From: Segetibacter sp.
GTDB lineage: Bacteria > Bacteroidota > Bacteroidia > Chitinophagales > Chitinophagaceae
Reading direction: 5' to 3'
DNA: 64,000 bases
Assembly (NCBI GenBank): GCA_028288485.1
Contig: JAQBNO010000174.1
Location: 59,955 to 123,954, forward strand
Shown: positions 3,898-64,000 of the stretch, one piece after another
How the letters are laid out: every line of letters begins with the position of its first letter
Position numbering within the stretch: position 1 is the first letter of the stretch
Program-made: the position numbers and the translations under genes
The notes under the pieces: model-generated
Databases searched by the model: none
What the model was told of the DNA's origin: nothing
Seen by the model: the letters and a program-made list of their open reading frames with translations, nothing else

Positions 3898-3967
3898 GGT
3901 TGTATTTTTTTTAAAAACTACAACTTTTGTCGGAGCTAGAAGTTAAAAAATAAACACGTGATCGACA

Positions 3968-13458: not shown

Positions 13459-13505
13459 CGAACTTTAGACATCCTTTGTAAAAAGCCCCCGACGAGTATC
13501 AATAA

Positions 13506-13559
13506 GTATAAGTGAGTGACACCCGTCCGAACGGTGGTTCATCCAGGCCGACAACGATG
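13506..13559 (-). repeat. core-A repeat copy split by a 30-nt insert
   Basis: The reverse complement reads catcgttg-[tcggcctggatgaaccaccgttcggacgg]-gtgtcactcacttatac. Confidence 0.6.
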
Positions 13560-13730
13560 TCTGATAACGAAATTTTGCTTGGTACAAAAAGAATCTTTTC
13601 CTTTTTTTTGTAATTCAATCCTGAAGCCAGGTAATATAATTTTCTTAACAAGAATAGAAGGAATAATTGATATATTTGAAAATAATTTAAAGTAAGATAA
13701 GTGCCTGGCGGCGACTTTATAAAATGCCAT

Positions 13731-14711
13731 ATGATTATAAAGACCTTTTTTTGTTTTTCTCTCCTGGTGTTCCTCAATATTTCATTATCCCATCAAGTAA
13801 ATGGGCAGGCTGCGGCCGATTCTTTTGGTATTTACAATCAAACTATTACAGGTTCTGACGTTCAGTTTAAGATGGTTCCTATTAAAGCTGGCACATTTAA
13901 AATGGGCAGTCCCGCAAACGAAAAAGGCCGGAAAGATCATGAAGGCCCCGCAAAAGATGTTTCAGTTTCTTCGTTTTGGATGGGTGCTCATGAGGTGACC
14001 TACGATGAGTATGACGCATTTTTTAAAGATGAGGAATTTGCAAGGAACCAAACGACCGATGCTATCACAAGACCAAGTCCTCCCTACATCGATCTTACTT
14101 TAGGAATGGGAAAGCAAGGCGGGTTCCCGGCCAATAGTATGTCGCAGTACGGTGCTTTAATGTATTGCCGCTGGCTATATAAAAAAACCGGTATTTTTTA
14201 CAGGTTACCTACCGAAGCAGAATGGGAATACGCATGCAGAGCCGGAAGTAATACCACATATCCATTTGGCGACGATACCACCGGATTAAGTAATTTTGCA
14301 TGGTACAAAAGTAACAGCGACAATAGGTATCATAAAACCGGTCTGAAAGCGCCTAATAAATGGGGTTTATACGATATACTTGGAAATGTAACGGAATGGA
14401 CTTTGGATCAATACGAAGATGACTATTTTACCCGGCTAGAAACCCCAGCAAAAGATCCCTTAATTAAACGAACAGCCCGGCATCCGCGTACTTTGAAGGG
14501 CGGAAATTACCAGGATGCAGCAGAAGATGTACGTCCCGCTGGCAGGCTGAAGTCGAGCCTGGAGTGGAACAACCGTGATCCTCAAATACCTAGAAGCAGG
14601 TGGTGGAATGCCGACGCACCCTTTGTAGGTTTCCGTGTTGTAAGGCCGGTAAAACAGCCTGCTGAAAACGAGGTAAACGAATTCTTTGCCACTTATCTAG
14701 ACAACTATTAA
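13731..14711 (+). CDS. formylglycine-generating-enzyme (SUMF1/FGE) family protein, secreted
   Basis: Start moved to the internal Met (MIIKTFFCFSLLVFL.. signal peptide). Motifs FWMGAHEVTYDEYDAF, RLPTEAEWEYACRAGS, GLYDILGNVTEW and GFRVVRP. Confidence 0.8.
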   Translation: MIIKTFFCFSLLVFLNISLSHQVNGQAAADSFGIYNQTITGSDVQFKMVPIKAGTFKMGSPANEKGRKDHEGPAKDVSVSSFWMGAHEVTYDEYDAFFKDEEFARNQTTDAITRPSPPYIDLTLGMGKQGGFPANSMSQYGALMYCRWLYKKTGIFYRLPTEAEWEYACRAGSNTTYPFGDDTTGLSNFAWYKSNSDNRYHKTGLKAPNKWGLYDILGNVTEWTLDQYEDDYFTRLETPAKDPLIKRTARHPRTLKGGNYQDAAEDVRPAGRLKSSLEWNNRDPQIPRSRWWNADAPFVGFRVVRPVKQPAENEVNEFFATYLDNY

Positions 14712-14756
14712 AAAATTCACTTAAGTCATATCTTTCTCTAACGTAAAAATTGCAAT

Positions 14757-16100
14757 ATGAATAAAGAAAACAGGAACGAGCAATCCCGCCGGGATTTTGT
14801 AAAACAAACTGCACTTGCTGCAGGGGGATTAATGGCTATGCCTATTTTTTCAAAGGCCAATTACTTTTCTGGTTCCGACGATGTAATTAAAGTAGCGGTT
14901 GTGGGTTGCGGCGGCAGGGGAACAGGTGCCGCAGTTCAGGCGTTGAGCACCAGGCAAAATGTACAGATCGTAGCTATGGCCGATGCTTTTCGCGATCGTC
15001 TTGATGGAAGTTATAAAAACATCATGGAGGACCTGAAGGAGAATGGTATGGAGAAGCGTCTTAACGTAAAAGAAGAGAATAAATTTGTCGGTTTTGATGC
15101 TTATAAACAGGCTATTCCTTTGGCTGATGTAGTTATATTGGCTACACCTCCCGGTTTCCGTCCCATACATTTTGAAGAAGCTATCAGGCTGAATAAACAT
15201 GTTTTTATGGAAAAGCCTGTAGCTACCGATCCGGCAGGCATTCAAAAGGTATTGGCAGTGGCACAGGAGGCTAAAAGAAAGAAATTGAATGTTGTTGTGG
15301 GCCTTCAACGTCGTTACCAGACCTCGTACCTGGAGTTGATGAAGCGGGTTAAAGATGGTAAGATCGGCGACATCGTATCTGCACAGGCCTGGTGGAATAA
15401 CGATGGTGTTTGGGTTAGACCCCGTAAGCCAGGTATGACCGAAATGGAATACCAGATGCGAAACTGGTACTACTTCAACTGGTTGTGCGGCGACCATATA
15501 ACAGAACAGCACGTGCATAATATAGATGTAATTAACTGGGCGCTGGAAGACTACCCTGTAAGCGCACAAGGTATGGGCGGGCGTGAGGTTCGAAAAGGAA
15601 AAGATCACGGAGAAATTTTTGATCATCACTTTGTAGAATTTCAGTATGCTAACGGTGTGATCTTAAACAGCCAGTGCCGCCACCAGAAAGGCACAATGAG
15701 CAAGGTAGATGAATTAATTTGCGGAACTAAGGGCAAGGTGTTTTTCGACCAGGCTCGTATTACCGATCTGAAAGGAAATGTGATCTACCAGTTCGATAAG
15801 AAAAAGGAAAACCGGCCATACCAGGCAGAACATGATGAACTTTTTGCGGCAATCGCGAAGGGCGAATATAAGTTTTGGGATACTGAACGTGGCGCAAAGA
15901 GTACCATGACTTCCATTTTAGGAAGAATGGCCACTTATTCAGGACAGGAAATTGCCTGGGAAAAGGCGATCAATTCAGGAGTTAACCTGCAGCCTGCCAC
16001 TTACGCCTGGGATGCAAAAATGCCCAACATGCCCAATAGCGACGGTCTTTATGCCGTTGCCGTGCCAGGGGTTACAAAGTTTGACCTGGCGGTAAAGTAA
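14757..16100 (+). CDS. Tat-exported Gfo/Idh/MocA-family oxidoreductase
   Basis: 447 aa with twin-arginine signal SRRDFVKQTALAAGG and Rossmann motif VAVVGCGGRGTGA. Confidence 0.85.
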   Translation: MNKENRNEQSRRDFVKQTALAAGGLMAMPIFSKANYFSGSDDVIKVAVVGCGGRGTGAAVQALSTRQNVQIVAMADAFRDRLDGSYKNIMEDLKENGMEKRLNVKEENKFVGFDAYKQAIPLADVVILATPPGFRPIHFEEAIRLNKHVFMEKPVATDPAGIQKVLAVAQEAKRKKLNVVVGLQRRYQTSYLELMKRVKDGKIGDIVSAQAWWNNDGVWVRPRKPGMTEMEYQMRNWYYFNWLCGDHITEQHVHNIDVINWALEDYPVSAQGMGGREVRKGKDHGEIFDHHFVEFQYANGVILNSQCRHQKGTMSKVDELICGTKGKVFFDQARITDLKGNVIYQFDKKKENRPYQAEHDELFAAIAKGEYKFWDTERGAKSTMTSILGRMATYSGQEIAWEKAINSGVNLQPATYAWDAKMPNMPNSDGLYAVAVPGVTKFDLAVK

Positions 16101-16140
16101 GTCACAGGTACTACCCGAAGTAAGTCGATAGAATTATAAA

Positions 16141-16180
16141 ACAGCCTCTCTCTTGAAAAAAGCAGGAGAGGGGCTGTTTC
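16141..16180. terminator. imperfect hairpin between convergent genes
   Basis: acagcctctctc..aggagaggggctgttt lies between the 3' ends of 14757..16100 (+) and 16326..17642 (-). Confidence 0.45.
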
Positions 16181-16276
16181 AGTTATAGGATTTTATATCT
16201 TGTTACTTTTTAAAAACTGTACGGGTATGAAAGCAGGAAGGATGCTTTGTTAGCGGGCAGACCATCTTTTTTTAGC

Positions 16277-16299
16277 ATTGTTGTGTCACTCACTTGTAC
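16277..16299 (+). repeat. core-A repeat copy
   Basis: cattgttgtgtcactcacttgtac, identical to 58427..58449. Confidence 0.75.
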
Positions 16300-16325
16300 G
16301 GCAAACCTTTATTCAGCTTCCAAAG

Positions 16326-17642
16326 TTATGTTTTCTTCATTTTCCCTAAAACCCAGTTGCCTACACTTAGCCCCTGTTCTCTTCCGTTGTCAATAGCATC
16401 CATAAAATGAATTCCCCCGTAAAACCTTGAAATACCAGCTTCAATAGCTGCTTCCTGGAACGACTTAAAACTCCTGGCAGGTAAGCCATATCTTACTTCT
16501 ACGGTGTCAGTATATTTAAAATTATCTCCAAAATAATGGCTGAGTATTGTAGCCGAAGATGCAGAGATGGTAGAATGCCCGCTTAAGTATTCAGGGAAAG
16601 GAGGTGTTTGTAATAAAGGGCTCCATGTGGCATCTATATATTTCCTGATCGCGGTTTCCGGACGAATACGATTGCTCCGGTATTTTTCATCCCAGCAACA
16701 GATAAACGCATCCATTAAACCGACCGACACTAAAGTGTAAATCTGCATAGATTCCTCGAAGTTCTTTTTGGCTTTGTTACAGGCAATGCCTGTAATGCCC
16801 AACCAATGAGCACCTGGCGAAATCTTTTTCAGACCTACTAACAGGTGCCCGTTATCCTGCACAGCAAAAGGATTACAATCCCAGAAAGCAGCAATTGCAC
16901 GGTGTTCTTCGGGTAGTGTCTCCTTATAATTCAATAACATCTGCCTGTAAAAAGCGGAGCCGGTATCTTTTGAAAATGGAACCGGGGGTGGAGGAATAAA
17001 TTGGGTACAGGTATCTAAAGTAAATGACCTGACTGTGCTAAAATACGGTTCAATTGCCGCTATAAAAGCAGGTGGGGTGGGAAACCACATTCCTTCGCTG
17101 TTGTCTGGTGTATACCTCGGGTAATTACTGATCTTGTTATAACCGTCGGCTTTTGCATACGCCAATATTTTTTTACTTACTGCAATAGCATACTTTTTTG
17201 ATTGTTCTATAGTCTCCTCTGAAAAACCAATTTCGACGCAGGAATCCAAAAAGCGTTTTTCATATGCTTCAAACAACTTACCTGACGGCTGCATTTTCTT
17301 TGCAGTTTCCATCATAGCCAGCAAAGCACTTAACTGGTACGAATAATCTTTGATAGAGTCCGGCTTTTTAAGGTCGGGGTAATTGTTCAAAATGCCATGC
17401 ATGCTTTCGAACTTTGAATTGTTCTGTGCAACCACCTCGTAACCGGCAAGACAGGCATAAGAAAAAAAACGGGCAGCCAACGGTGGGTTGGTAACGTCGT
17501 GAACCATTAACTCTGTCATTTGAGTTATTACCGAGCTGATATCCTTATTGTCTAAAGCCTTTTCCGGACGATTTTTACAACTGGTTAATAAACAGATCAC
17601 AAGTATTGTAAAGAAGACAGGAAGCTGTAGCCATTTACACAT
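16326..17642 (-). CDS. PAP2-superfamily / vanadium-haloperoxidase-like protein, secreted
   Basis: 438 aa with a signal or lipoprotein leader (..LLTSCKN). PAP2-type motifs YRSNRIRPET, SGHSTISASSA and SRFYGGIHFMDA. Confidence 0.7.
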   Translation of the reverse strand: MCKWLQLPVFFTILVICLLTSCKNRPEKALDNKDISSVITQMTELMVHDVTNPPLAARFFSYACLAGYEVVAQNNSKFESMHGILNNYPDLKKPDSIKDYSYQLSALLAMMETAKKMQPSGKLFEAYEKRFLDSCVEIGFSEETIEQSKKYAIAVSKKILAYAKADGYNKISNYPRYTPDNSEGMWFPTPPAFIAAIEPYFSTVRSFTLDTCTQFIPPPPVPFSKDTGSAFYRQMLLNYKETLPEEHRAIAAFWDCNPFAVQDNGHLLVGLKKISPGAHWLGITGIACNKAKKNFEESMQIYTLVSVGLMDAFICCWDEKYRSNRIRPETAIRKYIDATWSPLLQTPPFPEYLSGHSTISASSATILSHYFGDNFKYTDTVEVRYGLPARSFKSFQEAAIEAGISRFYGGIHFMDAIDNGREQGLSVGNWVLGKMKKT

Positions 17643-37185: not shown

Positions 37186-37261
37186 TATTCATAAAAATAT
37201 TTCGGATGTATTGTACTTCTAACTGTTTACGAATAAAAAGATGAATAAGGAGCCTGAAAGT

Positions 37262-37283
37262 AAAAGTGAGTGACACAACGATG
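37262..37283 (-). repeat. core-A repeat copy
   Basis: The reverse complement reads catcgttgtgtcactcactttt. Confidence 0.7.
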
Positions 37284-54419: not shown

Positions 54420-54654
54420 TTCAATAACAATTTATAACAATAAATGACAACCTTCCAAATCGTATGTGAAGATTGATTTAGATATTCTGCTCATCAAAAA
54501 TGACCAGATGAAACTTTATAGGAGAAGGAAGAGTATCAGGTCTGCTAAGAGAGAGTATATATGAATGGTGCAAATGTACGTCAAGAATGTTTAATGAATT
54601 GATAAAGGTTAGAAGTGGTGGTTTGGCCGTTTTGTTGAACATGCTGATAATGCA

Positions 54655-54830
54655 GGGAATTGCTTCGTACCTCGCAATCACCAACCGATAATTACCCGAG
54701 ATTGGCAACCTGGCGAAGCAAAGCGCTTACGCTTAATAAACCTGCTTTAAGTTGGAAGAAGCTGCTTTGAGCTGGTGCAAGTAGTGGTCGTGTTGATCGT
54801 GTAGGAGATTGCTTCGTTGCTGCCAATGAC
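54655..54830. repeat. cluster of three ATTGCTTCG..GCAAT-type palindromic units
   Basis: gggaattgcttcgtacctcgcaatcac (54655..54681), inverted attggcaacctggcgaagcaaagc (54701..54724) and ggagattgcttcgttgctgccaatgac (54804..54830). Confidence 0.65.
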
Positions 54831-54881
54831 GAATATAACCGTGCAGTGCGGGGAGAATAATAGATCAATAGAATTGAGATC

Positions 54882-54903
54882 GTACAAGTGAGTGACACAA
54901 CCG
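54882..54903 (-). repeat. core-A repeat copy
   Basis: gtacaagtgagtgacacaaccg. Confidence 0.7.
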
Positions 54904-55094: not shown

Positions 55095-55997
55095 TTGATG
55101 AATTCCATCTTTGCCAATTACCTGTTGGTTCCAATATTTACTGTTCTATCCACCATTGCCCTTGCTATCATGAACAAAAAGCAAAAGGTGATGGATAATA
55201 AGAATCTCATTATCTTAATATTGCTAACGGGAATTGTGTTGGGAATGCCGGGATTGTTTGGGATGATGGAACAGGCTTATATACCTTATGGATTTTTATT
55301 TTCGCAGTTTGTATACCTGTTTCTTGGCATCCTGTTCCTGTTCTATCTAATGAGAAGTCATAAAGACGCCCTTGAAAATCACCGGCCTTTTATGTTTTTT
55401 GCCAGCTGCGTTTGTATGCTGGCAGGCGTTTATGTTTTTAAGATCATCTTTGATTTTTTTAACCCTGTTGCTTATAATTATTTAGTAGCGTCTTCCATTT
55501 TTCCTTTTATTATTCCTCTTTTATTTTACTGGGCTTATGTAGCCATTTTATCTATTCCGGCAGAAGTTTATAAAGTATGGCATTATCCCGTTAACCCCGA
55601 TCCAATTGATTACGATAGTATCGATTTCAATAACCTGATGATCATTGAACTGGAGATCTATAAAAAGCCCGATGATAATACACCGCTAAAAATAAAAGCA
55701 AAAGCGCCGCCGCATCTTACTTTCGGTACATGGTTCCAGATGTTTATCGAAGATTACAATTTAAAATTCGATACGAATGGCATCAGGTATCTTAAGCCGA
55801 ACGACGAACCATACGGCTGGTTGTTTTATGTAACAACAGGCGGGTTTAAAAAGAAGGTGTTTATTGATCCCGACCTGACTATTGCAGCAAATAAGATTAC
55901 AGAACAACATACAATTGTTTCGAAGAGAGTACTGGAACAACCAGCCGAACAAATTGCAGAGACTTATAATATCAATAAAATGGCCTCGGTTGTTTAA
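55095..55997 (+). CDS. multi-pass membrane protein with a cytoplasmic C-domain, TssN-like (T6SS-iii membrane component candidate)
   Basis: 300 aa. About five TM helices in the first 155 aa, then a soluble domain. It lies directly adjacent to tssF. The assignment rests on architecture and context only. Confidence 0.45.
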   Translation: MMNSIFANYLLVPIFTVLSTIALAIMNKKQKVMDNKNLIILILLTGIVLGMPGLFGMMEQAYIPYGFLFSQFVYLFLGILFLFYLMRSHKDALENHRPFMFFASCVCMLAGVYVFKIIFDFFNPVAYNYLVASSIFPFIIPLLFYWAYVAILSIPAEVYKVWHYPVNPDPIDYDSIDFNNLMIIELEIYKKPDDNTPLKIKAKAPPHLTFGTWFQMFIEDYNLKFDTNGIRYLKPNDEPYGWLFYVTTGGFKKKVFIDPDLTIAANKITEQHTIVSKRVLEQPAEQIAETYNINKMASVV

Positions 55998-57859
55998 GCA
56001 TTCACTTTTGAAATTATCCGGTAATGGTTAGACATGCCTGAGCGCGTCTCTAATTTAGATTTTAACTGTCCGCATGCGAGTTCCCATTCTGTAAAGTCCA
56101 CTACTTTGTTTGCCGGCGTTAATATGACATCTATTGTTCGTTTTATTCCTTCTTTTGGGTTCCCTGACATTTCATAACCTTTCTTTACTTTTACCGTGTT
56201 TAGCTTGGTACCTAGTTCATAAAAGCAAAAACTGCGGATATCTTCCACTGTAACAATGCGATCCCTGGTTAACAGCCCATATTTAAAAGCATACAATTTT
56301 TCTTCCGCCTTCAACTTGTCTTTTCCGCCCATTGTGGAAGTTAACATCACCAGCGAATCTGATTTTAACGAAACCCCACCTGATTGTTGCAGCCTCGTTC
56401 CTGACCGAAGATTGTTTGCCAGGTCCATATTCGTTGTCCAGTATTCTACAAACATAAGCTCACTGTGTTCAACCGGCTTTACGATCAGATAATTGGGTAT
56501 TTCTAAAGTATCGCCCAGGTTGCTGTTTGTTTTTTGCTCCATTAAGGCAATGAACTGGTTCATTTCTTTTAAAGTACTTGCAATAAAATCGTGTCCGAAA
56601 GCTGAGAAAGCCGCGCTTTCGCTGCGAAGAAGTTCCAGCAGGTAATGGATCATTTCGCGGCCATTCCTGCTGTCAAAACGTTCTAATCCACCTGTTCTTA
56701 ATGTATAGGTTCCTACTTCTTCATCTCCTGGTTTTCTGAATGGTATTGGTTTGTATTTTACGTTTCCATCGGTAAATGACCTGACTGCAAGAAAGCGTTC
56801 GTTATGTACATTAGGAATGGGAATAATGTTACGTCCGCTTCGTAAACGATACCTTAAATCATTTCGCTTACAATTCATTACAGGAAAAGCATTTGCCCTT
56901 ACGGTAATTTCGTTCAACAATTCCTGCTGAATATTTGTTGAGAAAACCACCTTCAGCCAGATTAGTTTATTGGTTAGTTTTTGAAGAACTACAGGTGACA
57001 GCAGATTTATAAAGGCATCAGGATATTGTTTGCAGTCATCACTGGTTACTTCAAACCTCTCGTCGGCAATTGTAATAAATTTTTTCTGGTAATAATTATT
57101 GATATTCTTTTGTGTTGATTGTAGCAGGTCGGTGCTTGTGATATTTACTTCGTCGCCGTTCGGTATCTTTTCGGTGTCGTGCATGCCGGAATGTACCATG
57201 ATTTCCCTGCCGTCGAGATACCACCTCGTAAACGGTAAAAACTGGTAGAAAAAGTCAGCTACTGACGGATCAATGTTTTTGAGATCAAAAAAGAAGCTGA
57301 GACCATTTATGTTTTTTATGCGGGAATTAATAGATAGACCCAGGTAAATACAGCACTCGGTCGATTGTACTCCTTTCGATGCGGCGCCTGCTAACATTTT
57401 ATTCGCTGCCGGATCAAACAGATACAGGTTAGAACCAGAGAAGAGGGAAACAACCTGGGCATCAAAAATCCTTACTTTGTTAACTGCGGTAAAAAACAGG
57501 TCCACCGATGTGTCAAGCGGCCCATCCTGTTTAGAAGCAATTTTTTTTTCAACATAAAACTGGTCCTCAGCGGTAATGGTTTCAGAAGGTTCGCCGGGCA
57601 TTGCCTGCATGATTGCATGGGCAGGAGTTGGGGCAGTAAGCAAGTCAGGGGCAAGCAGGTGAGCCATCTTTTCAAGAATTCTTCCTTCGGCTGTTCTTAT
57701 GTCATTTATAACGTCGTACAGCTCAGCCGAAAGAGCTTCCATCAGAAGCTTAACAAGCGGATCAAGGTCGTCGGTATTTTTAGTGTCCCAATAAGTTAAG
57801 GCAACACGAAGCATTCTTGTTTTAATCGCTTCTTTCGAATTGTCAGTATCAAAAAACAT
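55994..57859 (-). CDS. tssF: type VI secretion baseplate subunit TssF
   Basis: 621 aa. The N-terminal block DPLVKLLMEALSAELYDVINDIRTAEGRILEKMAHLLAPDLLTAPTPAHAIMQAMP parallels the canonical TssF pattern DP.VE.LLE.FA.L...I...LDD.FP......L..L.P.YLRP.PS. It lies immediately downstream of a gp25-like gene. Confidence 0.75.
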   Translation of the reverse strand: MFFDTDNSKEAIKTRMLRVALTYWDTKNTDDLDPLVKLLMEALSAELYDVINDIRTAEGRILEKMAHLLAPDLLTAPTPAHAIMQAMPGEPSETITAEDQFYVEKKIASKQDGPLDTSVDLFFTAVNKVRIFDAQVVSLFSGSNLYLFDPAANKMLAGAASKGVQSTECCIYLGLSINSRIKNINGLSFFFDLKNIDPSVADFFYQFLPFTRWYLDGREIMVHSGMHDTEKIPNGDEVNITSTDLLQSTQKNINNYYQKKFITIADERFEVTSDDCKQYPDAFINLLSPVVLQKLTNKLIWLKVVFSTNIQQELLNEITVRANAFPVMNCKRNDLRYRLRSGRNIIPIPNVHNERFLAVRSFTDGNVKYKPIPFRKPGDEEVGTYTLRTGGLERFDSRNGREMIHYLLELLRSESAAFSAFGHDFIASTLKEMNQFIALMEQKTNSNLGDTLEIPNYLIVKPVEHSELMFVEYWTTNMDLANNLRSGTRLQQSGGVSLKSDSLVMLTSTMGGKDKLKAEEKLYAFKYGLLTRDRIVTVEDIRSFCFYELGTKLNTVKVKKGYEMSGNPKEGIKRTIDVILTPANKVVDFTEWELACGQLKSKLETRSGMSNHYRIISKVNA

Positions 57860-57885
57860 GGAAGTGAGTTTATTAGGTGTTTTGG

Positions 57886-58326
57886 TCAGTCAAGCGAAAG
57901 CGGACTTAAAAAAAGGTTGGCAGTGAAATTATAGCCTTCCCCCGTTTTTTTTACTACTGCTTTCAGGCGGATCTCTACCTTTTTTTTGATCTCCGGGTAT
58001 TTCATGATCGCATTTAATTTTTCTATTTCTGTAAGCATAACCGATACATCAACACTTGTAAGCCGGTTTTCGTGGCTGGTTATCGACTGCAAAATAGAGT
58101 TGCATAATTTTTTTTCCCAAAGGCCCTGGCTTACGATCAGTTCAAAATCCAGGTCCCAGATCTCGCAGCCGAACGTAGGATCACTTCGATGTTCGCCAAA
58201 CCGGGTCATTATAATAAGCTCAATATTTTTAGAAATTGATGCGCCGAGGTCGCAGGTAGGAGCGTCTTTCCCTTCCATCATTTCTGACAATTGTAGTGGA
58301 AGTTTATAGTAAACATTGCTGGCCAT
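57886..58326 (-). CDS. tssE: type VI secretion baseplate subunit TssE (GPW/gp25 family)
   Basis: 146 aa. SISKNIELIIMTRFGEHRSDPTFGCEIWDLDFE matches the gp25-lysozyme-like signature (I..NI..IL.T..GER...P.FG..). Confidence 0.8.
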   Translation of the reverse strand: MASNVYYKLPLQLSEMMEGKDAPTCDLGASISKNIELIIMTRFGEHRSDPTFGCEIWDLDFELIVSQGLWEKKLCNSILQSITSHENRLTSVDVSVMLTEIEKLNAIMKYPEIKKKVEIRLKAVVKKTGEGYNFTANLFLSPLSLD

Positions 58327-58426
58327 ACTAATAAATTAGATTAAATATAAACCAAAATGTAGTTGTAACGAACGGCTAAATGATTTTCTCTTTTTTTGGT
58401 TACCAGCAGCAGTTTTTTATAGGGTC

Positions 58427-58449
58427 ATTGTTGTGTCACTCACTTGTAC
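58427..58449 (+). repeat. core-A repeat copy
   Basis: cattgttgtgtcactcacttgtac. Confidence 0.75.
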
Positions 58450-58558
58450 TGCAGCTTCCTGTGCAGCGTTCCTCTTCTCTTTGTAGAGATAGTGTGAAAG
58501 AAAGATTTAAGATTCGAGCGATCAGCTGTAATCCTTATCTCACTTCGTTATTAAGTAT

Positions 58559-58954
58559 TTATATTTTCATTTCAATCAGCCACCTATGGCCAAACGGATC
58601 TTTTATTTCCCCCTGGCGATATCCATAATCGTAATCCTGCGCCGGTGAAATCTCTATTGCGCCCGCCTCTATTGCCCTGCTCATGTAAGAATCTACATCC
58701 GGAACAAACAATCCAATTGTTGCAGTTGTGCCGTTATGCTTTTCAGGACTAAATGAGCCGGAACGTAGCGATTCTTCATGAATATGAAACATTGCCCCAT
58801 CTATTGATAATTCTGCAACATGTATACTTCCGTCATCGTTTGTCCAACGCCGGTGTTCAATGGCTCCCAATGCTTTTGTATAAAAATCAATGTTTGTAAC
58901 GCCCCTTCTTATAAAAAGCTGAGGTGCAAACACGGTGTTATTTGTTTCATTCAT
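58559..58954 (-). CDS. VOC (glyoxalase / bleomycin-resistance) family protein
   Basis: 131 aa. Paired beta-alpha-beta-beta-beta pattern, with C-terminal GYRQGEIKDPFGHRWLI typical of the PhnB/VOC family. Confidence 0.7.
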   Translation of the reverse strand: MNETNNTVFAPQLFIRRGVTNIDFYTKALGAIEHRRWTNDDGSIHVAELSIDGAMFHIHEESLRSGSFSPEKHNGTTATIGLFVPDVDSYMSRAIEAGAIEISPAQDYDYGYRQGEIKDPFGHRWLIEMKI

Positions 58955-59127
58955 AGCCAGTTGTTTTATTTATTGTACGAAGGAATGTACTTGTTTTTAA
59001 CCGTCTGATAGTAAAGCGTCACTGCACCTGCTATTGTGGCTTCAGCATTTGTTTTTGATGCTTATCCTATCTTACCGGTAAACGGGAGGCAAGCATAAAT
59101 AGCTGCACCAACGGTCAGAATAACGTT

Positions 59128-59204
59128 TGTCGCCCTGGGCGCTTGTCGAAGGGTATCTAATTACTCTTATCGTAATTGGCTTCGACCCGCTCAGCCTGAC
59201 ATCC
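59128..59204. repeat. imperfect inverted repeat of the GTCGAAGGG / CTTCGAC family
   Basis: The arms tgtcgccctgggcgcttgtcgaagggtatc and ggcttcgacccgctcagcctgacatcc are imperfect reverse complements separated by about 20 nt. Confidence 0.6.
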
Positions 59205-59284
59205 AATTGTAGCTTAAGTAAACGACATTGAAAGATAAGTTATAGATATTTATTCTACTTCTTATTCACTCGCATACATACCTG

Positions 59285-59977
59285 TTACAATACCCTATAT
59301 TTCATTATCCAATAGTACTGCAGGTTTATAAAGTTCAAGTCACTTACCTTGTTTGCAAGCAGTTGCCTGATAAATATTTCGGATGGAAAGTTTTTTAGAA
59401 TTTGGTGAGTTGTTCCGTTTTCCAGCGTTCTTGTTTGATAAGTATTACCAACACTATCTTTCCCGGTTATAGAAAGGTTGCTGCCGTCAACATAGTTATT
59501 ATCCATAAAAACAACTGTCCCCCCTTTTTCTGCAAGACTGTTAGCTATATCGATGAAGGTGTTTAAGTCTTGTAGTAGTATGTGGCTCCAGATGAATCCT
59601 CCAAACAAGCTGTCATACTTGTTGGTGTTTTCCAGCTTAAATAGATCTGCTATTTGGAAGTTTACGTTAGCGGGGGAATAGATTTTTGATTTTGCTACTT
59701 CAATTACTGCATCATTGATGTCAGTTGCTACAATGGAGTGAGCAGTTTTAGCGATTATTTCCGTCCAGTAGCCGGTGCCGCAAGCAATTTCAAATACTCT
59801 TTTGCCTGCAAAAAGGTCTTGTAATATTTGTGCAGCCACCAGTAGATCGCTTTGCCGCTCGGCTTTACTGTAAATTTTTTCGTACTCTTTTGCCCTGTCT
59901 TCATAATAGGAAATAAGGTCGGAGTACATGTTTTTTAACGTTACTGATGTAAGTGGGTTTGAGATAGGATCTCTCAT
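59285..59977 (-). CDS. class I SAM-dependent methyltransferase
   Basis: 230 aa. Motif I VFEIACGTGYWT and motif II-like ATDINDA, with a Rossmann-fold pattern. Confidence 0.75.
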   Translation of the reverse strand: MRDPISNPLTSVTLKNMYSDLISYYEDRAKEYEKIYSKAERQSDLLVAAQILQDLFAGKRVFEIACGTGYWTEIIAKTAHSIVATDINDAVIEVAKSKIYSPANVNFQIADLFKLENTNKYDSLFGGFIWSHILLQDLNTFIDIANSLAEKGGTVVFMDNNYVDGSNLSITGKDSVGNTYQTRTLENGTTHQILKNFPSEIFIRQLLANKVSDLNFINLQYYWIMKYRVL

Positions 59978-60245
59978 CAGTTAAAGATATAAAGCTTAAC
60001 TGAAAAATAGCAATGACCGGTGTTTCATTTGCAAAGCTGGGGGCCTGCTATTTTGCTATCTATCAAATCAGATTTTCCGGGTTTTAGCAAAATGTTTTCG
60101 AAGAAAGTTGACGATGAACACCTGTTTTTTTATCACCTTAACCCTCACTCTTTTCTTAAAACCAATTAATATTATTTCTTCTAATTCATTTTTATATGCT
60201 ATTTTTAAAACTCTGTAACCAACCGTACACTAACTAGCTACACTC

Positions 60246-60716
60246 ATGAAGCCTCTTAACCAACAAGAGATTAATAAAGCGATTCGCAAATTTTTATTCC
60301 ATTTCTTTTGTATCGTTTTAGCTTCTTTAATCAGTACCTGGTTTTTTTATCAAACCATCCGTTACGATCTTCGTTTCCTGTCTGCCGTGTCTTCCTCTAC
60401 TGAAAATTCTACCGTTATTCAAAACCAGTTAAATGATGCGTCTTCTTCCATTTCAGCAAAGTTGAAAGCGTATAATACGGGTACTAACAATGTGCGGCTT
60501 ACAGAAGAATTAAAGGATGAAACGCAAAAGATGAATGAGCTTATAAAATCAGATGCAAGCAACGGCTCACTTGAAGTGTACAAAAGAGTTTATGCGGTAA
60601 TACCTTATGTAATGACGGTTAAGGACAGCATTAACGAAGTGAGCCACGAAAGAGAGAATTTGCAAAAGAAATACGACCAGCTATTGGGTAGGCAGCTTAA
60701 ATCGGTGGACCATTAG
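60246..60716 (+). CDS. single-pass membrane coiled-coil protein, TssO-like (copy 1)
   Basis: 156 aa. Short cytoplasmic N-terminus (NQQEINKAIRKF), one TM helix and a coiled-coil tail. Location is within the T6SS-iii-like gene set. Confidence 0.4.
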   Translation: MKPLNQQEINKAIRKFLFHFFCIVLASLISTWFFYQTIRYDLRFLSAVSSSTENSTVIQNQLNDASSSISAKLKAYNTGTNNVRLTEELKDETQKMNELIKSDASNGSLEVYKRVYAVIPYVMTVKDSINEVSHERENLQKKYDQLLGRQLKSVDH

Positions 60717-60810
60717 CGTAAAGAGAAGAGCCCGATTTTTAGCTACTTCGGTGTTCAAGGAGCTATAAAAGATTATGAAGGTTGTTTTGGATGTTGCTAT
60801 GAAAAGATAC

Positions 60811-60833
60811 AGTAAAAGGGAGTGACACAACCG
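60811..60833 (-). repeat. core-A repeat copy (degenerate)
   Basis: agtaaaagggagtgacacaaccg. Confidence 0.6.
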
Positions 60834-60950
60834 GGGCTGAAGGGAAAGAAACTGCCGGAAAACAAAAGAATATCAGTAAAAAATGTTTTGTAAACGCGTA
60901 CAAAAAGGGTTATCGCAAAATGTTTTCTACAATTAAAAACCGCCGCTATA

Positions 60951-61403
60951 ATGTATAGTGTAAGTGCCGAACAAAAGAGGAATTATTTTATTTATTTATT
61001 ACTGATGTTCCTGCTAACGACAGCTATCATCTGGTGGCTGTTAATGGGTGACTATTTTAATTTAAACGTCACTAAAACAAAAGAGAAGTATTCGGGGCAG
61101 ATTAATAAAGACCTGGAATTCAGAAAAGATCAGCAACAAATGCTTCCTGCAATAGATAGTCTATTTACCAGGATTGCAACTTATAACCCGGCAGTCAATG
61201 CTCTTTATGCTGAGAATGAAATATCGGAACAGGTGCGGCAATTGAAAAAAATGAGTGAAAAGTCGGTTGATCCCCGCTACAAATCTTTCAATCATCTTGG
61301 CGAGATCTACGCTGAATATTTTAATAGTAAAAAGGAGCTAGGGAATATTCAAAAGGGCATTAATGATATTAATAAAAGCCTGCAGAGAAGTGGCGGCCGT
61401 TAG
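60951..61403 (+). CDS. single-pass membrane coiled-coil protein, TssO-like (copy 2)
   Basis: 150 aa with the same architecture as 60246..60716 (AEQKRNYFIYLLLMFLL.. TM helix, then coiled coil). It lies directly upstream of the PKD protein. Confidence 0.4.
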   Translation: MYSVSAEQKRNYFIYLLLMFLLTTAIIWWLLMGDYFNLNVTKTKEKYSGQINKDLEFRKDQQQMLPAIDSLFTRIATYNPAVNALYAENEISEQVRQLKKMSEKSVDPRYKSFNHLGEIYAEYFNSKKELGNIQKGINDINKSLQRSGGR

Positions 61404-61454
61404 TAATCGTTCAAAAATTTAAAATCAATTCGAGTTACGAAACAACAATAAGAC

Positions 61455-62390
61455 ATGGCAGAAGAAATGTATGGTAGCCAGGCAGCAGGTTCTTCGCGTA
61501 TCGGCACTATAATCATATCTGTTGCCGCATTTATCGTGTTGCTTGCAGCAGGCCTATACGTGTACAAACAATATTATGGTAAAAGAACGCTCCAGGGATT
61601 TATTATTAACAGGGATATTACTGTAAACGACAGTCTTGAGTACGAGGACAGAACAATAGATGCAAAGAGTTGGGAATGGGATTTTGGAAACGGATTTACT
61701 TCGTTAAAGCGGAGTGGTAAATATAAATTTAATACGCCGGGGGTATACGACGTAAAGCTTGAGGTAGATCACGAGTTGTCGAATGTTTTTCGCGTTAATG
61801 TAAGAGATACTGTTGCTGCTGCTGATACTTCGATTATTATTGATGGCCCCGCGCGGGGAATTGTTGGAGAAGAAATAAGATTTTCTGCACGGGGAAATGG
61901 AAACAGGTGGGAGTGGAGGTTTGGAGAATCGGGTGCAGTGGATATGGTTGGACCCGAAGCTTTTTACAAATACAGCGCTCCCGGAATTTATACCATCAAA
62001 TTATCTAACCTGGTAAATGTTACACCTGCAACACTTAAAATAAGGATCTTGCCTGAATTAGCAGATACAACTACCATCGTAAAAACCGATCCTGAGGCTG
62101 AAGCGGTAAAGGCAGCCAAACAAAGAGTTTACGAGATCAGGACTAAATTACAATCACTGGCAAATGGAAACGACTTCAATTCGTTGTATTACGAAGTTCT
62201 TCAAAATTATTTGTGTAACGATGAGAACGCGCTGGTTGTGATCAACGGCAATAAGAAAACAGACTTTTATAAATATTGTACTCACCTGCAATTCGAGAAA
62301 GGGGTTGTGATAGATGAACTGACCGTCCAGGAAAGTCCGAACGGATGCGCTACTTCACTTACTATAAAAGAGCATTTTAAATTAGATTGA
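61455..62390 (+). CDS. membrane-anchored protein with two PKD-like domains, TssP-like
   Basis: 311 aa with the TM helix IGTIIISVAAFIVLLAAGLYVY. Two PKD signatures: WEWDFGNGFTS..GVYDVKLEV and WEWRFGESGAV..GIYTIKLSN. Confidence 0.5.
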   Translation: MAEEMYGSQAAGSSRIGTIIISVAAFIVLLAAGLYVYKQYYGKRTLQGFIINRDITVNDSLEYEDRTIDAKSWEWDFGNGFTSLKRSGKYKFNTPGVYDVKLEVDHELSNVFRVNVRDTVAAADTSIIIDGPARGIVGEEIRFSARGNGNRWEWRFGESGAVDMVGPEAFYKYSAPGIYTIKLSNLVNVTPATLKIRILPELADTTTIVKTDPEAEAVKAAKQRVYEIRTKLQSLANGNDFNSLYYEVLQNYLCNDENALVVINGNKKTDFYKYCTHLQFEKGVVIDELTVQESPNGCATSLTIKEHFKLD

Positions 62391-62407
62391 TTTTTTAAAA
62401 GCCATTA

Positions 62408-64000
62408 ATGAAAAAGCTTTCATTTATTTTCATATTTTTTGTAGCTGCTATAAACATTGATGCACAATCGCTGCGTACGTCAACTATTAATGAAGTGCCT
62501 TCCAACTTCTTTGTTTCGGTATCCAATTCTCCTTTTACCAACGTAAAGGTCGATAACAGCCAGGGTGGAAATAAGACGCAATGGCTGGTTTTTTCGGACC
62601 GTGCAAACAATACCACTTTTTTGAAACCAGATGGAAAGACGCCCTTCAAAGCCCTTCCTTTAATGGACGTATTTTACGTAATGGATAAACAAAACGGTTA
62701 CCTGCAAATTGTAAAATACAATCCTGCAATTGTAAAAAGAGATAAGATCAAAGATGTAAAGAGTGCCGAATACCTGGGTTGGGTTGAAGAAAGTAAAATG
62801 CTGTTGTGGTCAAAGGCTCTGGTATCTACTTCGGATAACCATCCTGAAAAAGCTTTAATGATTGTAAACAATAAAGCAGTCTTTGAAAGTCCGACACAGT
62901 ATTTAAAGAACGATTCAATAAAGGTTTTTGCAGAGCCTTCTTTGCAATCGAATGGAAGCTGCAAATTAAGGCTGAGCGACCTTGCTTATGTTTATAAAAT
63001 AACCGGAGATGGCAATTTTGCATTGCTGGGACGCAAGGAAAAACTGCAGTTTGATACCACTTGCAAAAGTGATATACTAGGTTGGGTTTCTACCCGGGTG
63101 GTGTCGCCATGGGGCCAGCGTTTATTTCTTACTGTTGCCATGCCCGACAGCACTTCTGCATCGGATGTTGAAATAAAGGTAAACAGGGCAATCAGCGGAG
63201 AAGCTATTTCTGAGCCTGTGTGGAGGTTCAGTCCGCCGGTGAATGCCTCTCACCATACCATGAACAGTTTCCCGGTGTTTACCTATGCCACCAATGCAAA
63301 TAATAGTGGCGAAGTTACTACCGCCATTCCTTCCTCTGTTTTCGAGCTCAAGAAAACAGACGTGTATAACGTGAAAGGCGCAAAACTTACCTACGATTCA
63401 TTTATTGGTTTAAAAAAGAATATTCATTCTTACAACCTTGTGTTTTTAGTTGACGGCGGTAGTTCGATGAAAAAGTATTTCCCGATACTGGTGAACTTTA
63501 TACAGGGAATAAAAAATAGCCTCAAAACCGCTTATCCTGAGTATTATAATTTTTCGTATGGTGCTGTTATTTATCGTAATAAAAATAATTGCAGCGAAGC
63601 TGATCAAATTCAATCGTTCGGGCCGACAAAAAATGCAACCGCCGTTTCTGACTTTTTTTATAGGCAAATTGCTCAAACCAATGCCTGTAGTTATGGTAAT
63701 GTTTTGCAACCCGTTTATGCCGGTTTTAATAAAGCCCTCGACCTCTTTCCCACCGATAATTTTGAGAATAATATTATTATAAACGTAGGCACAACCGGAA
63801 ATAAATTCGATAATACTTCCCCGGTTGAAAGAGACCTTGTTCGGAAGATCGGGAAGTCGAATGCCCGAATTCTTGCCTTCCAGCCTTTCAGCGATTATTA
63901 TTCTTTGTTTAATAATTACGTATTGCAGATCAGGGAATTGCTCGATAAATCGGCAGTATTGCTGGCGGAGCAGAAAAAAGGATGGATCGTAAACAGCAAC
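62408..64000 (+). CDS. large secreted protein, N-terminal 531 aa only (3' end outside the window), TssR-like with a vWA-like region
   Basis: Not in the ORF track because no stop is reached. I translated it by hand as MKKLSFIFIFFVAAINIDAQS.., open through base 64000. SH3-like block ..VFYVMDKQNGYLQIVKY.. and vWA-like NLVFLVDGGSSMKKYFP.. Confidence 0.55.
   Translation, partial: MKKLSFIFIFFVAAINIDAQSLRTSTINEVPSNFFVSVSNSPFTNVKVDNSQGGNKTQWLVFSDRANNTTFLKPDGKTPFKALPLMDVFYVMDKQNGYLQIVKYNPAIVKRDKIKDVKSAEYLGWVEESKMLLWSKALVSTSDNHPEKALMIVNNKAVFESPTQYLKNDSIKVFAEPSLQSNGSCKLRLSDLAYVYKITGDGNFALLGRKEKLQFDTTCKSDILGWVSTRVVSPWGQRLFLTVAMPDSTSASDVEIKVNRAISGEAISEPVWRFSPPVNASHHTMNSFPVFTYATNANNSGEVTTAIPSSVFELKKTDVYNVKGAKLTYDSFIGLKKNIHSYNLVFLVDGGSSMKKYFPILVNFIQGIKNSLKTAYPEYYNFSYGAVIYRNKNNCSEADQIQSFGPTKNATAVSDFFYRQIAQTNACSYGNVLQPVYAGFNKALDLFPTDNFENNIIINVGTTGNKFDNTSPVERDLVRKIGKSNARILAFQPFSDYYSLFNNYVLQIRELLDKSAVLLAEQKKGWIVNSN

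What the first reader, a model, noticed from the sequence alone, without database searches (positions are those of the whole stretch)
55095..64000. Half-visible, split Bacteroidota-type (T6SS-iii-like) type VI secretion locus
Seen in sequence: a gp25-like TssE and a 621-aa TssF with the family N-terminal pattern. Around them sit five genes whose architectures match the Bacteroidota-specific membrane-complex set. These are a 5-TM protein (TssN-like), two single-pass coiled-coil proteins (TssO-like), a TM plus 2xPKD protein (TssP-like), and a large signal-peptide protein with an SH3-like and a vWA-like region (TssR-like). From established knowledge, T6SS-iii lacks TssJ/L/M and uses TssN to TssR instead. 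The locus here is atypical. The two modules are divergent and separated by unrelated genes and repeats. No sheath (TssB/C), Hcp, VgrG, ClpV, TssG, TssK or TssQ lies in the 9 kb visible. It could be the edge of a full system that continues past 64000, or an orphan or degenerate module.
Basis: partly seen in the sequence, partly recalled or inferred. Interest (0 to 1): 0.7.

Follow-up and report, generated by a model that had tools for sequence, protein, structure and literature searches.

The report
One part of a multi-locus T6SS
This stretch of a soil Segetibacter genome encodes the membrane anchor and two baseplate proteins of a Bacteroidota-type type VI secretion system, and at least three of the missing parts lie on another contig, an arrangement already described for this phylum.

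Summary
Window 55095-64000 encodes seven intact T6SS-iii genes: TssN, TssF, TssE, a TssQ-like TssO paralogue, TssO, TssP and TssR. TssR is cut by the window end and is 799 aa in full.

The locus is neither the edge of a contiguous cluster nor clearly a relic.
- In 81 Pedobacter, Mucilaginibacter and Chitinophaga loci, ClpV-TssB-TssC follow TssR wherever downstream sequence was held. Here two unrelated opposite-strand genes follow it.
- No TssG, TssK, ClpV, sheath, Hcp or VgrG, nor any remnant of them, lies in the 64 kb.
- A TssG assigned to a Segetibacter sp. MAG (MDB5248594.1, 30.9-kb contig) occurs in the same two sequencing runs as the window. There a PAAR protein and VgrG lie next to it, and no TssF precedes it.

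So the system is split over at least two loci. Bongiovanni et al. 2024 already report such splits in Bacteroidota.

Three things are unusual: the two inserted genes, TssN abutting TssF instead of lying between TssK and TssG, and mosaic ancestry. TssE and TssF are 65-79% identical to Segetibacter-type systems. TssN is at most 42% identical to any full-length cluster representative, and TssR at most 34% to any homologue found.

The sheath, tube, ClpV and TssK of this organism were not seen.

The parts
54882..54902 (+). Copy of a dispersed 21-nt intergenic repeat (GTACAAGTGAGTGACACAACC), 192 nt upstream of tssN
   Evidence: 5 copies in the window, 0 expected by chance. (I3): a 20-nt perfect inverted pair with the copy at 58430-58449. 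No Rfam family and no conserved fold.
55095..55997 (+). tssN: membrane-complex protein with about five TM helices and a cytoplasmic domain. The start is TTG at 55095 or ATG at 55098. Its stop overlaps the tssF stop in a TTAA.
   Evidence: Pfam PF17555 at 4.9e-82. Hydropathy. It is 39-44% identical to Pedobacter/Chitinophaga-type TssN but only 28-29% to Segetibacter-type TssN. The best full-length hit among 1.84 billion cluster representatives is 42%. Junction sequence.
55994..57859 (-). tssF: baseplate wedge subunit, 621 aa, full length
   Evidence: Weak Pfam PF05947 hit at 9.2e-5. 65-73% identical to TssF inside complete T6SS clusters. Foldseek top and only significant hit is 6n38_H. No PHROG hit.
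57886..58326 (-). tssE: gp25-like baseplate subunit, 146 aa
   Evidence: PF04965 at 1.3e-11. TIGR03357 at 1e-7. 71-79% identical to Segetibacter-type TssE.
58429..58449 (-). Second copy of the 21-nt repeat, 103 nt upstream of tssE and in the same orientation as the gene
58559..58954 (-). Glyoxalase/VOC-family gene, one of two genes inserted between the two modules. It is not a T6SS component and is absent from every related locus examined.
   Evidence: PF00903 at 4.9e-10. No homologue in the Segetibacter-type loci, where it was used as a query. In reference loci tssE and the first TssO-like gene are directly divergent.
59285..59977 (-). SAM-dependent methyltransferase, the second inserted gene. 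It is not a T6SS component.
   Evidence: Methyltransf_25/31/11 hits at 1e-10 to 1e-8. No equivalog in NCBIfam.
60246..60716 (+). TssO paralogue with one TM helix and a helical periplasmic part. It is the positional equivalent of TssQ, being the first gene of the tssQ-O-P-R group.
   Evidence: PF17561 at 2.8e-7. Homologue of the conserved 173-aa gene upstream of tssO in 76 reference loci. TM segment. TssQ architecture and the tssQOPR grouping are described in PMC10781749.
60812..60832 (+). Third copy of the 21-nt repeat, 118 nt upstream of tssO
60951..61403 (+). tssO: single-pass membrane-complex protein, 150 aa
   Evidence: PF17561 at 1.2e-26. TM segment.
61455..62390 (+). tssP: one TM helix plus two PKD domains, 311 aa
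   Evidence: PKD_4/PKD at 2e-13, two stretches. phmmer 8.3e-63 to the gene at the TssP position in Pedobacter. 39-41% identical to Pedobacter/Chitinophaga-type TssP.
62408..64000 (+). tssR: the N-terminal 531 of 799 aa. The gene ends at about window-equivalent 64807. Its signal peptide has no cysteine (AQS cleavage-type).
   Evidence: PF17643, PF20780 and PF20782. The full-length protein on Logan contig L002 (P0001) adds PF20781. N-terminal sequence.

Best explanation
The region is one of at least two loci that together encode a Bacteroidota-type (T6SS-iii) type VI secretion system in a soil Segetibacter sp. (Chitinophagaceae) genome.

This locus supplies two things:
- The whole envelope-spanning membrane complex. 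TssN is in the inner membrane. The TssQ-like protein, TssO and TssP are single-pass proteins. TssR is a large periplasmic or outer-membrane-associated protein.
- Two baseplate wedge subunits, TssE and TssF.

A second locus on another contig supplies TssG, a PAAR protein and VgrG. By analogy with the closest relatives it presumably also supplies Hcp, TssC, TssB and ClpV.

Inferred mechanism, taken from B. fragilis work and not shown here: TssN-Q-O-P-R assemble the anchor. The TssK-F-G-E baseplate docks on TssN through TssK. The TssBC sheath then contracts and drives the Hcp/VgrG/PAAR needle with its effectors through the complex.

The gene set is mosaic. The baseplate and spike genes belong to the Segetibacter-type lineage. 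The five membrane-complex genes belong to a deep, otherwise unsampled lineage that is nearest to the Pedobacter/Chitinophaga type.
For: SHOWN
- Family assignment of all seven genes.
- All are full length relative to homologues: TssN 300 vs 297 aa, TssF 621 vs 624, TssE 146 vs 144, TssP 311 vs 325, TssR 799 vs 791.
- Logan contigs from two runs carry the same genes at 99.9% DNA identity. All six coding differences are synonymous, including three in tssR, which was not the look-up key.
- TssR is followed by a 103-aa gene and a 119-aa cupin-like gene on the other strand. The 119-aa protein is MDB5250022.1, JWQ40_4416, Segetibacter sp., on the 152,180-bp contig.
- No TssG, TssK, ClpV, TssB, TssC, Hcp or VgrG, nor any remnant, lies in the window.
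- In every one of the 81 reference loci ClpV directly follows TssR, and TssB-TssC follow it wherever enough downstream sequence was held.
- In five Segetibacter-type loci TssG follows TssF wherever both were seen, and is followed by VgrG-Hcp-TssC-TssB-ClpV.
- TssG P0145 (MDB5248594.1, Segetibacter sp., 30,904-bp contig) is found in SRR13312997 and SRR13312975, the same two runs as the window's contigs. On a JGI contig it is preceded by an AP_endonuc_2-like gene rather than TssF. It is followed by a convergent 53-aa gene, PAAR and VgrG, the last matching Segetibacter-type VgrG at 7e-226.
- Identity matrices establish the mosaic. TssE is 71-79% and TssF 65-70% identical to the Segetibacter type, which is within that type's own spread. 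TssN is 28-29% identical to the Segetibacter type, whose members share 73%, and 39-44% to the Pedobacter type.
- The best TssR homologues found are 34% or less. The best full-length TssN representative is 42%.

FROM THE LITERATURE (PMC10781749)
- TssNQOPR form the membrane complex and are each essential in B. fragilis.
- TssN interacts with TssK.
Against: - TssK, TssB, TssC, Hcp and ClpV of this organism were never seen.
- Assigning the TssG/PAAR/VgrG locus to the same genome is an inference. It rests on four things: the same two runs, the same organism name, NCBI protein accessions about 1,400 apart, and the 30.9-kb contig being withheld by the look-up in the same way as the 152-kb one.
- The exact PAAR sequence was found only in the JGI contig, not in the MAG.
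- The membrane-complex proteins keep only 42-67% of the columns that are at least 95% conserved in reference families, against 84-90% for TssE and TssF. This could reflect relaxed constraint rather than deep ancestry.
- A Segetibacter-type baseplate paired with a foreign membrane complex raises a compatibility question that I could not test.
Confidence: 0.72

Rival explanations
1. Orphan or decaying remnant. A rearrangement removed TssG, TssK and the ClpV/sheath/tube/spike block, and the seven remaining genes no longer build a working machine. Alternatively, the membrane module is a leftover of a second, lost system.
For: - No contractile or spike genes in 64 kb plus 1.6 kb.
- Three gene adjacencies that are conserved elsewhere are broken here: TssF-TssG, TssK-TssN-TssG and TssR-ClpV.
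- Two unrelated genes are inserted between the modules.
- The membrane proteins retain fewer conserved columns.
Against: - All seven ORFs are intact and full length with strong family scores.
- No pseudogene fragments flank them.
- Population variants are all synonymous, although there are only six.
- Intact TssG, PAAR and VgrG are attributed to the same MAG.
- Multi-locus T6SS-iii systems are common and taken to be functional.
Confidence: 0.14
2. Edge of a single contiguous T6SS cluster that simply continues beyond position 64000.
For: - tssR is cut by the window end.
- The source contig is 152 kb, so more sequence exists.
- In every reference locus the sheath genes lie just after tssR.
Against: - The 1.6 kb beyond the window holds the end of tssR and then two unrelated genes on the opposite strand.
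- No TssG hit carries the 152,180-bp contig length. The organism's TssG is on a 30.9-kb contig.
- Other T6SS genes further along the 152-kb contig cannot be excluded.
Confidence: 0.1
3. Phage-derived or eCIS-type (extracellular contractile injection system) baseplate genes lying by chance next to unrelated membrane proteins.
For: TssE hits phage gp25 families about as well as the TssE model: PHROG 261 at 2e-7 against TIGR03357 at 1e-7.
Against: - TssF has no PHROG hit, and its only fold match is T6SS TssF.
- TssN, TssO and TssR are T6SS-iii-specific families.
- Orthologues of TssE and TssF sit inside complete T6SS clusters.
Confidence: 0.01

Closest known systems
Bacteroides fragilis GA3 T6SS-iii and its TssN-Q-O-P-R membrane complex (Bongiovanni et al. 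2024, PMC10781749)
   Same: - The same protein families are present: TssN, TssO, TssR, a PKD-bearing TssP, TssE and TssF.
- The predicted topologies match. [quoted passage not shown]
- The tssQ-O-P-R gene group and the tssF-E pair are both present.
   Different: - TssR here has a signal peptide without a lipobox cysteine, whereas B. fragilis TssR is an SPII lipoprotein.
- The TssQ-like protein is recognisable only as a weak TssO paralogue.
- tssN is not between tssK and tssG.
- Sequence identity to B. fragilis was not measured.
Pedobacter / Mucilaginibacter / Chitinophaga single-locus T6SS-iii, for example Pedobacter nototheniae GCA_032678625.1 (locus L004)
   Same: - The order and orientation match: <-tssF <-tssE | ->tssO' ->tssO ->tssP ->tssR.
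- The window's TssN, TssP and TssR are nearest to this type, at 39-44%, 39-41% and 32-33% identity.
   Different: - In those loci tssK-tssN-tssG flank tssF, and clpV-tssB-tssC-hcp-vgrG follow tssR in one cluster. None of these is present here.
- Here two unrelated genes separate tssE from tssO'.
- TssE and TssF here are not of this type, at 36-54% identity.
Segetibacter-type T6SS-iii of Chitinophagaceae MAGs, for example GCA_025963515.1 contig JAOQAN010000628.1 (L090), Logan contig L089 and ENA genome contig L086
   Same: - TssE is 71-79% and TssF 65-73% identical, which is within the type's own diversity.
- The TssG, VgrG and PAAR of the second locus are also of this type.
- The same dispersed 12-nt repeat core occurs beside tssG.
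   Different: - Those systems are contiguous: <-tssP <-tssO <-tssK <-tssN | ->PAAR..->tssE ->tssF ->tssG <-vgrG <-hcp <-tssC <-tssB <-clpV.
- Their TssN is only 28-29% identical to the window's.
- Here tssG is detached and tssN abuts tssF.
Multi-locus T6SS-iii of Chryseobacterium and other Bacteroidota (PMC10781749)
   Same: The system is split into several genomic loci, while the tssFE pair and the tssQOPR group stay together.
   Different: The paper reports tssN 'systematically' between tssK and tssG. Here tssN is separated from tssG and sits next to tssF. The position of tssK is unknown.

Membership tests
T6SS-iii (Bacteroidota-type type VI secretion system) | TssN membrane protein (PF17555) | tested here: met
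   E 4.9e-82 over the full model. About five TM segments.
T6SS-iii (Bacteroidota-type type VI secretion system) | TssO (PF17561) | tested here: met
   E 1.2e-26 for 60951-61403, above the gathering score.
T6SS-iii (Bacteroidota-type type VI secretion system) | TssP (N-terminal TM helix plus periplasmic PKD-like domains, next to tssR) | tested here: met
   One TM helix plus two PKD stretches. phmmer 8.3e-63 to the gene at that position in Pedobacter. No dedicated TssP profile was available.
T6SS-iii (Bacteroidota-type type VI secretion system) | TssR (PF17643, PF20780, PF20782, PF20781) | tested here: met
   Three domains are in the window part. All four are in the full-length protein P0001.
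T6SS-iii (Bacteroidota-type type VI secretion system) | TssQ | tested here: inconclusive
   The 156-aa protein has the right position, size and topology, and a weak TssO hit at 2.8e-7. No TssQ profile or reference sequence was at hand.
T6SS-iii (Bacteroidota-type type VI secretion system) | Baseplate subunits TssE and TssF | tested here: met
   TssE: gp25 family at 1.3e-11. TssF: below the Pfam cut-off, but supported by orthology, NCBI names of homologues and the Foldseek match to 6n38_H.
T6SS-iii (Bacteroidota-type type VI secretion system) | TssG, VgrG and PAAR | tested here: inconclusive
   Absent from the window. Present on contigs from the same two runs and in a Segetibacter sp. MAG protein, MDB5248594.1. 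That they come from the same genome is inferred, not shown.
T6SS-iii (Bacteroidota-type type VI secretion system) | Contractile sheath TssB/TssC, Hcp tube, ClpV and TssK | not testable with these tools
   Absent from the window and the 1.6 kb beyond it. The rest of the source assembly is withheld. The 90%-identity clusters of relatives' TssB, TssC, ClpV and Hcp contain no member from it.
T6SS-iii (Bacteroidota-type type VI secretion system) | No TssJ/TssL/TssM membrane complex | tested here: met
   No protein of the locus, and no ORF of at least 150 aa in the window, hits those families. This covers the window only, not the genome.
Phage or eCIS baseplate | gp6/gp25-like proteins that match phage families better than T6SS families, with tail genes nearby | tested here: not met
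   TssF has no PHROG hit. TssE hits both kinds of model equally. There are no tail genes in the window.

The most novel reading that the evidence does not exclude
This may be a natural module swap. A Segetibacter-type baseplate and spike (TssE, F, G, VgrG, PAAR) would be working with a membrane complex (TssN, Q-like, O, P, R) from a deep lineage that has no close relative in the searched collections. TssN is at most 42% identical to any full-length representative, and TssR at most 34% to any homologue found. If the system fires, the baseplate-to-membrane-complex interface of T6SS-iii (TssK-TssN) tolerates exchange between distant lineages. The identity of this organism's TssK, whether Segetibacter-type or co-transferred with TssN, would show where the compatibility boundary lies.
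Probability: 0.3. Interest if true: 0.5.

Novelty: new member of a known kind. Interest (0 to 1): 0.3.

Why it matters
For annotation, the locus is a correct T6SS-iii call that single-locus detectors would score as incomplete. It only makes sense with multi-locus models such as the MacSyFinder multi-loci setting used by Bongiovanni et al. 2024.

For T6SS biology, it adds a Chitinophagaceae example in which the tssF-tssG and tssK-tssN-tssG adjacencies are broken. It also shows baseplate and membrane-complex genes with clearly different ancestries. That gives a concrete case for asking how modular the T6SS-iii baseplate/membrane-complex interface is.

None of this changes what the system is understood to do.

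Tried and rejected
1. Extending the contig. Look-ups by TssF, TssP and TssR gave only 4-5 kb Logan contigs, reaching 1.6 kb past the window. TssO had no exact match. The 152-kb source contig is withheld.
2. GTDB and JGI scans with TssR as a single protein found nothing. A JGI scan with the second-locus VgrG found no identical contig; the best hits were 69-88%.
3. Sequence-profile searches of the PDB with TssF and TssR alignments gave only chance hits.
4. The AlphaFold model of TssF was poor, with pLDDT 59. I used it only for the one clear Foldseek hit.
5. I tried to find this organism's TssB, TssC, ClpV and Hcp through the 90%-identity clusters of relatives. The first call failed because I trimmed the wrong end of minus-strand genes. 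The corrected call found no member from the 152-kb or 30.9-kb contigs.
6. One TssG candidate, P0138, turned out to come from an unrelated sample.
7. Rfam and consensus folding gave nothing for the 21-nt repeat. I considered it as a T6SS promoter or operator element and set that aside, because two window copies lie in convergent gene ends and most copies sit downstream of a same-strand gene.
8. The sigma-70 promoter and terminator scan was no better than shuffled sequence.
9. GC and GC3 are uniform across the two modules and the flanking genes, so there is no compositional sign of recent transfer.

Full report
WHAT IS THERE

Between 55095 and the window end lie nine genes.

| Gene | Coordinates | Strand |
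|---|---|---|
| tssN | 55095-55997 | + |
| tssF | 55994-57859 | - |
| tssE | 57886-58326 | - |
| glyoxalase/VOC | 58559-58954 | - |
| SAM methyltransferase | 59285-59977 | - |
| TssO-like, 156 aa | 60246-60716 | + |
| tssO | 60951-61403 | + |
| tssP | 61455-62390 | + |
| tssR | 62408 onward | + |

Pfam assigns TssN (4.9e-82), TssO (1.2e-26, and 2.8e-7 for the first copy) and the three N-terminal TssR domains (1.9e-26, 1.2e-21, 5.1e-50). It also assigns two PKD domains to TssP and gp25 to TssE. NCBIfam adds a sub-threshold TssE hit.

TssF is only weakly recognised by Pfam (9.2e-5). Other evidence establishes it:
- 35-41% identity to the gene at the TssF position in 75 reference loci.
- 65-73% identity to proteins inside complete T6SS clusters.
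- About 50% identity to proteins NCBI names TssF.
- No phage-family hit.
- A single significant fold match, to the TssK-TssF-TssG baseplate structure 6n38. The model is weak.

Hydropathy agrees with the topologies published for the B. fragilis proteins.

WHOSE GENOME, AND WHAT LIES BEYOND THE WINDOW

Logan contigs from runs SRR13312997 and SRR13312975 carry the same genes at 99.9% DNA identity. One of them, L002, completes TssR at 799 aa, including the TssR_C domain. It also reaches 1.6 kb past the window.

After tssR come a 103-aa gene and a 119-aa cupin-like gene, both on the opposite strand. The 119-aa protein is MDB5250022.1, JWQ40_4416, from a Segetibacter sp. MAG. It lies on a 152,180-bp contig.

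The rest of the window is ordinary chromosome: DEAD-box helicase, Omp85, pseudouridine synthases, DinB, Ffh, S16, RimM, TrmD, a SusC/D pair and others. Homologues of TssG, TssK, ClpV, TssB, TssC, Hcp and VgrG are absent from all six reading frames, even as fragments.

HOW UNUSUAL IS THE LAYOUT

A GTDB scan with a TssR alignment returned 80 loci from Pedobacter, Mucilaginibacter, Chitinophaga and relatives. With the Pedobacter nototheniae locus, this gives 81 reference loci. Their usual order is:

<-tssK <-tssN ->tssG <-tssF <-tssE | ->tssO' ->tssO ->tssP ->tssR ->clpV ->tssB ->tssC ->(flavodoxin) ->hcp ->hcp ->vgrG.

Four things are exceptional here:
- clpV directly follows tssR in all 81 loci, but not here.
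- tssK and tssG are missing beside tssN.
- tssN is inverted and abuts tssF, with overlapping stop codons in a TTAA.
- Two unrelated genes sit between tssE and tssO'.

Bongiovanni et al. 2024 (PMC10781749) describe the tssFE pair and a tssQOPR group. [quoted passage not shown] By position and architecture, the first TssO-like gene is the TssQ equivalent. I could not test that against a TssQ reference.

THE SECOND LOCUS

The closest TssF relatives (63-73% identity) come from Segetibacter-like Chitinophagaceae. Five of their loci show a second, contiguous architecture:

<-tssP <-tssO <-tssK <-tssN | ->PAAR ... ->tssE ->tssF ->tssG <-vgrG <-hcp <-tssC <-tssB <-clpV.

I searched with a TssG from that group. 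No hit carried the 152-kb contig length. One hit did stand out: P0145, at 65% identity, which is MDB5248594.1 from Segetibacter sp. on a 30,904-bp contig. It is encoded on Logan contigs from exactly the two runs that hold the window's sequence, and on a JGI contig. The look-up does not show its NCBI contig, just as it does not show the 152-kb one.

In that locus the upstream neighbour of tssG is an AP_endonuc_2-like gene, not tssF. Downstream and convergent lie a 53-aa gene, a 90-aa PAAR protein and a VgrG, the last matching Segetibacter-type VgrG at 7e-226. GC content matches the window. The two NCBI accessions are about 1,400 apart.

I infer that this is the same genome and that its T6SS is split over at least two loci. 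The break falls exactly at the tssF|tssG junction, on both sides. I never saw the sheath, tube, ClpV or TssK of this organism.

MOSAIC ANCESTRY

Identity of the window's proteins to the two reference types:

| Protein | To Segetibacter type | Within Segetibacter type | To Pedobacter type | Within Pedobacter type |
|---|---|---|---|---|
| TssE | 71-79% | 73-78% | 47-54% | 51-63% |
| TssF | 65-70% | 64-76% | 36-41% | 38-42% |
| TssN | 28-29% | 73% | 39-44% | 51-58% |
| TssP | 25-34% | 25% (L089 copy partial) | 39-41% | 52-64% |
| TssR | none seen in the fetched loci | none seen | 32-33% | 42-52% |

TssE and TssF fall inside the Segetibacter type's own spread. TssN, TssP and TssR sit nearer the Pedobacter type, and are remote even from it.

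No TssR above 34% identity was found in the 5.8-billion-cluster search or in GTDB. A full HMMER scan of 1.84 billion cluster representatives finds no full-length TssN above 42%.

So the baseplate and spike genes have a different history from the membrane-complex genes. Composition gives no sign of recent transfer. Either a module exchange between T6SS-iii lineages or very unequal evolutionary rates could explain this. The window's TssN, TssP and TssR resemble the Pedobacter type more than the Segetibacter type, which favours exchange.

FUNCTIONAL OR RELIC

For function:
- All seven ORFs are full length.
- There is no pseudogene debris around them.
- All six coding differences among population variants are synonymous. 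The number is small, and the one in tssF is conditioned by the look-up method.
- Intact partner genes exist elsewhere.
- Multi-locus T6SS-iii systems are common.

For decay:
- The conserved adjacencies are broken.
- The membrane-complex proteins retain only 42-67% of strongly conserved columns, against 84-90% for TssE and TssF.

I put about 0.72 on 'one part of a working multi-locus system', 0.14 on 'relic', 0.10 on 'contiguous cluster continuing beyond the window' and 0.01 on a phage or eCIS origin.

VERDICT

This is a correctly recognised T6SS-iii locus, and an ordinary one in kind. It is a new member of a known system, in an organisation class already described for the phylum. Two modestly interesting particulars remain: a detached tssG with a relocated tssN, and module-level mosaicism.

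The decisive check is to run a multi-locus T6SS-iii model on the MAG that holds MDB5250022.1 and MDB5248594.1.

Noticed in passing
window 16279-16299(-), 37260-37280(+), 54882-54902(+), 58429-58449(-), 60812-60832(+); also L087 10042-10056(-), L090 3198-3212(-), L092 1361-1372(-), L094 1163-1174(-): A dispersed 21-nt intergenic repeat, GTA[CA]AAG[TG]GAGTGACACAAC, followed about 25 nt later by CTGCCGG and an A-rich run. There are 5 copies in the window against 0 expected by chance, and 3 of them fall within the 6-kb T6SS region. In relatives and in the second locus it lies beside tssG, and in L087 exactly in the tssF-tssG spacer where this genome's locus is broken. The copies at 54882 and 58430 form a perfect 20-nt inverted pair that flanks tssN-tssF-tssE. 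It has no Rfam family and no conserved fold. It may be a REP-like element or a recombination substrate.
   Followed up: partly
window 54642-54684 and 54791-54833: Two 43-nt direct repeats, 72% identical and 149 nt apart, each containing an ATTGC...GCAAT-type inverted motif. They lie in the unusually long (675 nt) non-coding stretch between the DEAD-box helicase gene and tssN.
   Followed up: no
window 55994-55997: The convergent genes tssN and tssF end on overlapping stop codons within a TTAA, with no spacer or terminator between them. This is the exact point where relatives have tssG.
   Followed up: partly
window 62408-62470 (TssR N-terminus): The TssR signal peptide (MKKLSFIFIFFVAAINIDAQS) lacks a lipobox cysteine, as does the consensus of 10 homologues. 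B. fragilis TssR is described as an SPII lipoprotein. TssR may therefore be anchored differently in Chitinophagia and Sphingobacteriia.
   Followed up: partly
L005 (ENA contig ctg165748_3x_l) 2932-9692: A third T6SS-iii layout: tssP-tssR-SLT lytic transglycosylase-tssE, then a TssF split into three ORFs. The split probably reflects frameshift errors in a 3x long-read assembly. The SLT gene inside the cluster is notable.
   Followed up: no
L086 (6.25-Mb genome contig) 2575-4920 and 14126-16471: The tssB-tssC-hcp block is present twice within 12 kb, with identical phmmer scores, so it is an apparently recent tandem-like duplication of sheath and tube genes. No TssN was recognisable; a 275-aa ORF at 13192-14019 has no family.
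   Followed up: no
window 58559-59977: The glyoxalase/VOC and SAM-methyltransferase genes occupy the slot where Segetibacter-type loci carry PAAR, DUF4123 adaptor and effector/immunity-like cargo. Whether they are T6SS-related cargo or a plain insertion is unknown. They have no homologues in the related loci.
   Followed up: partly
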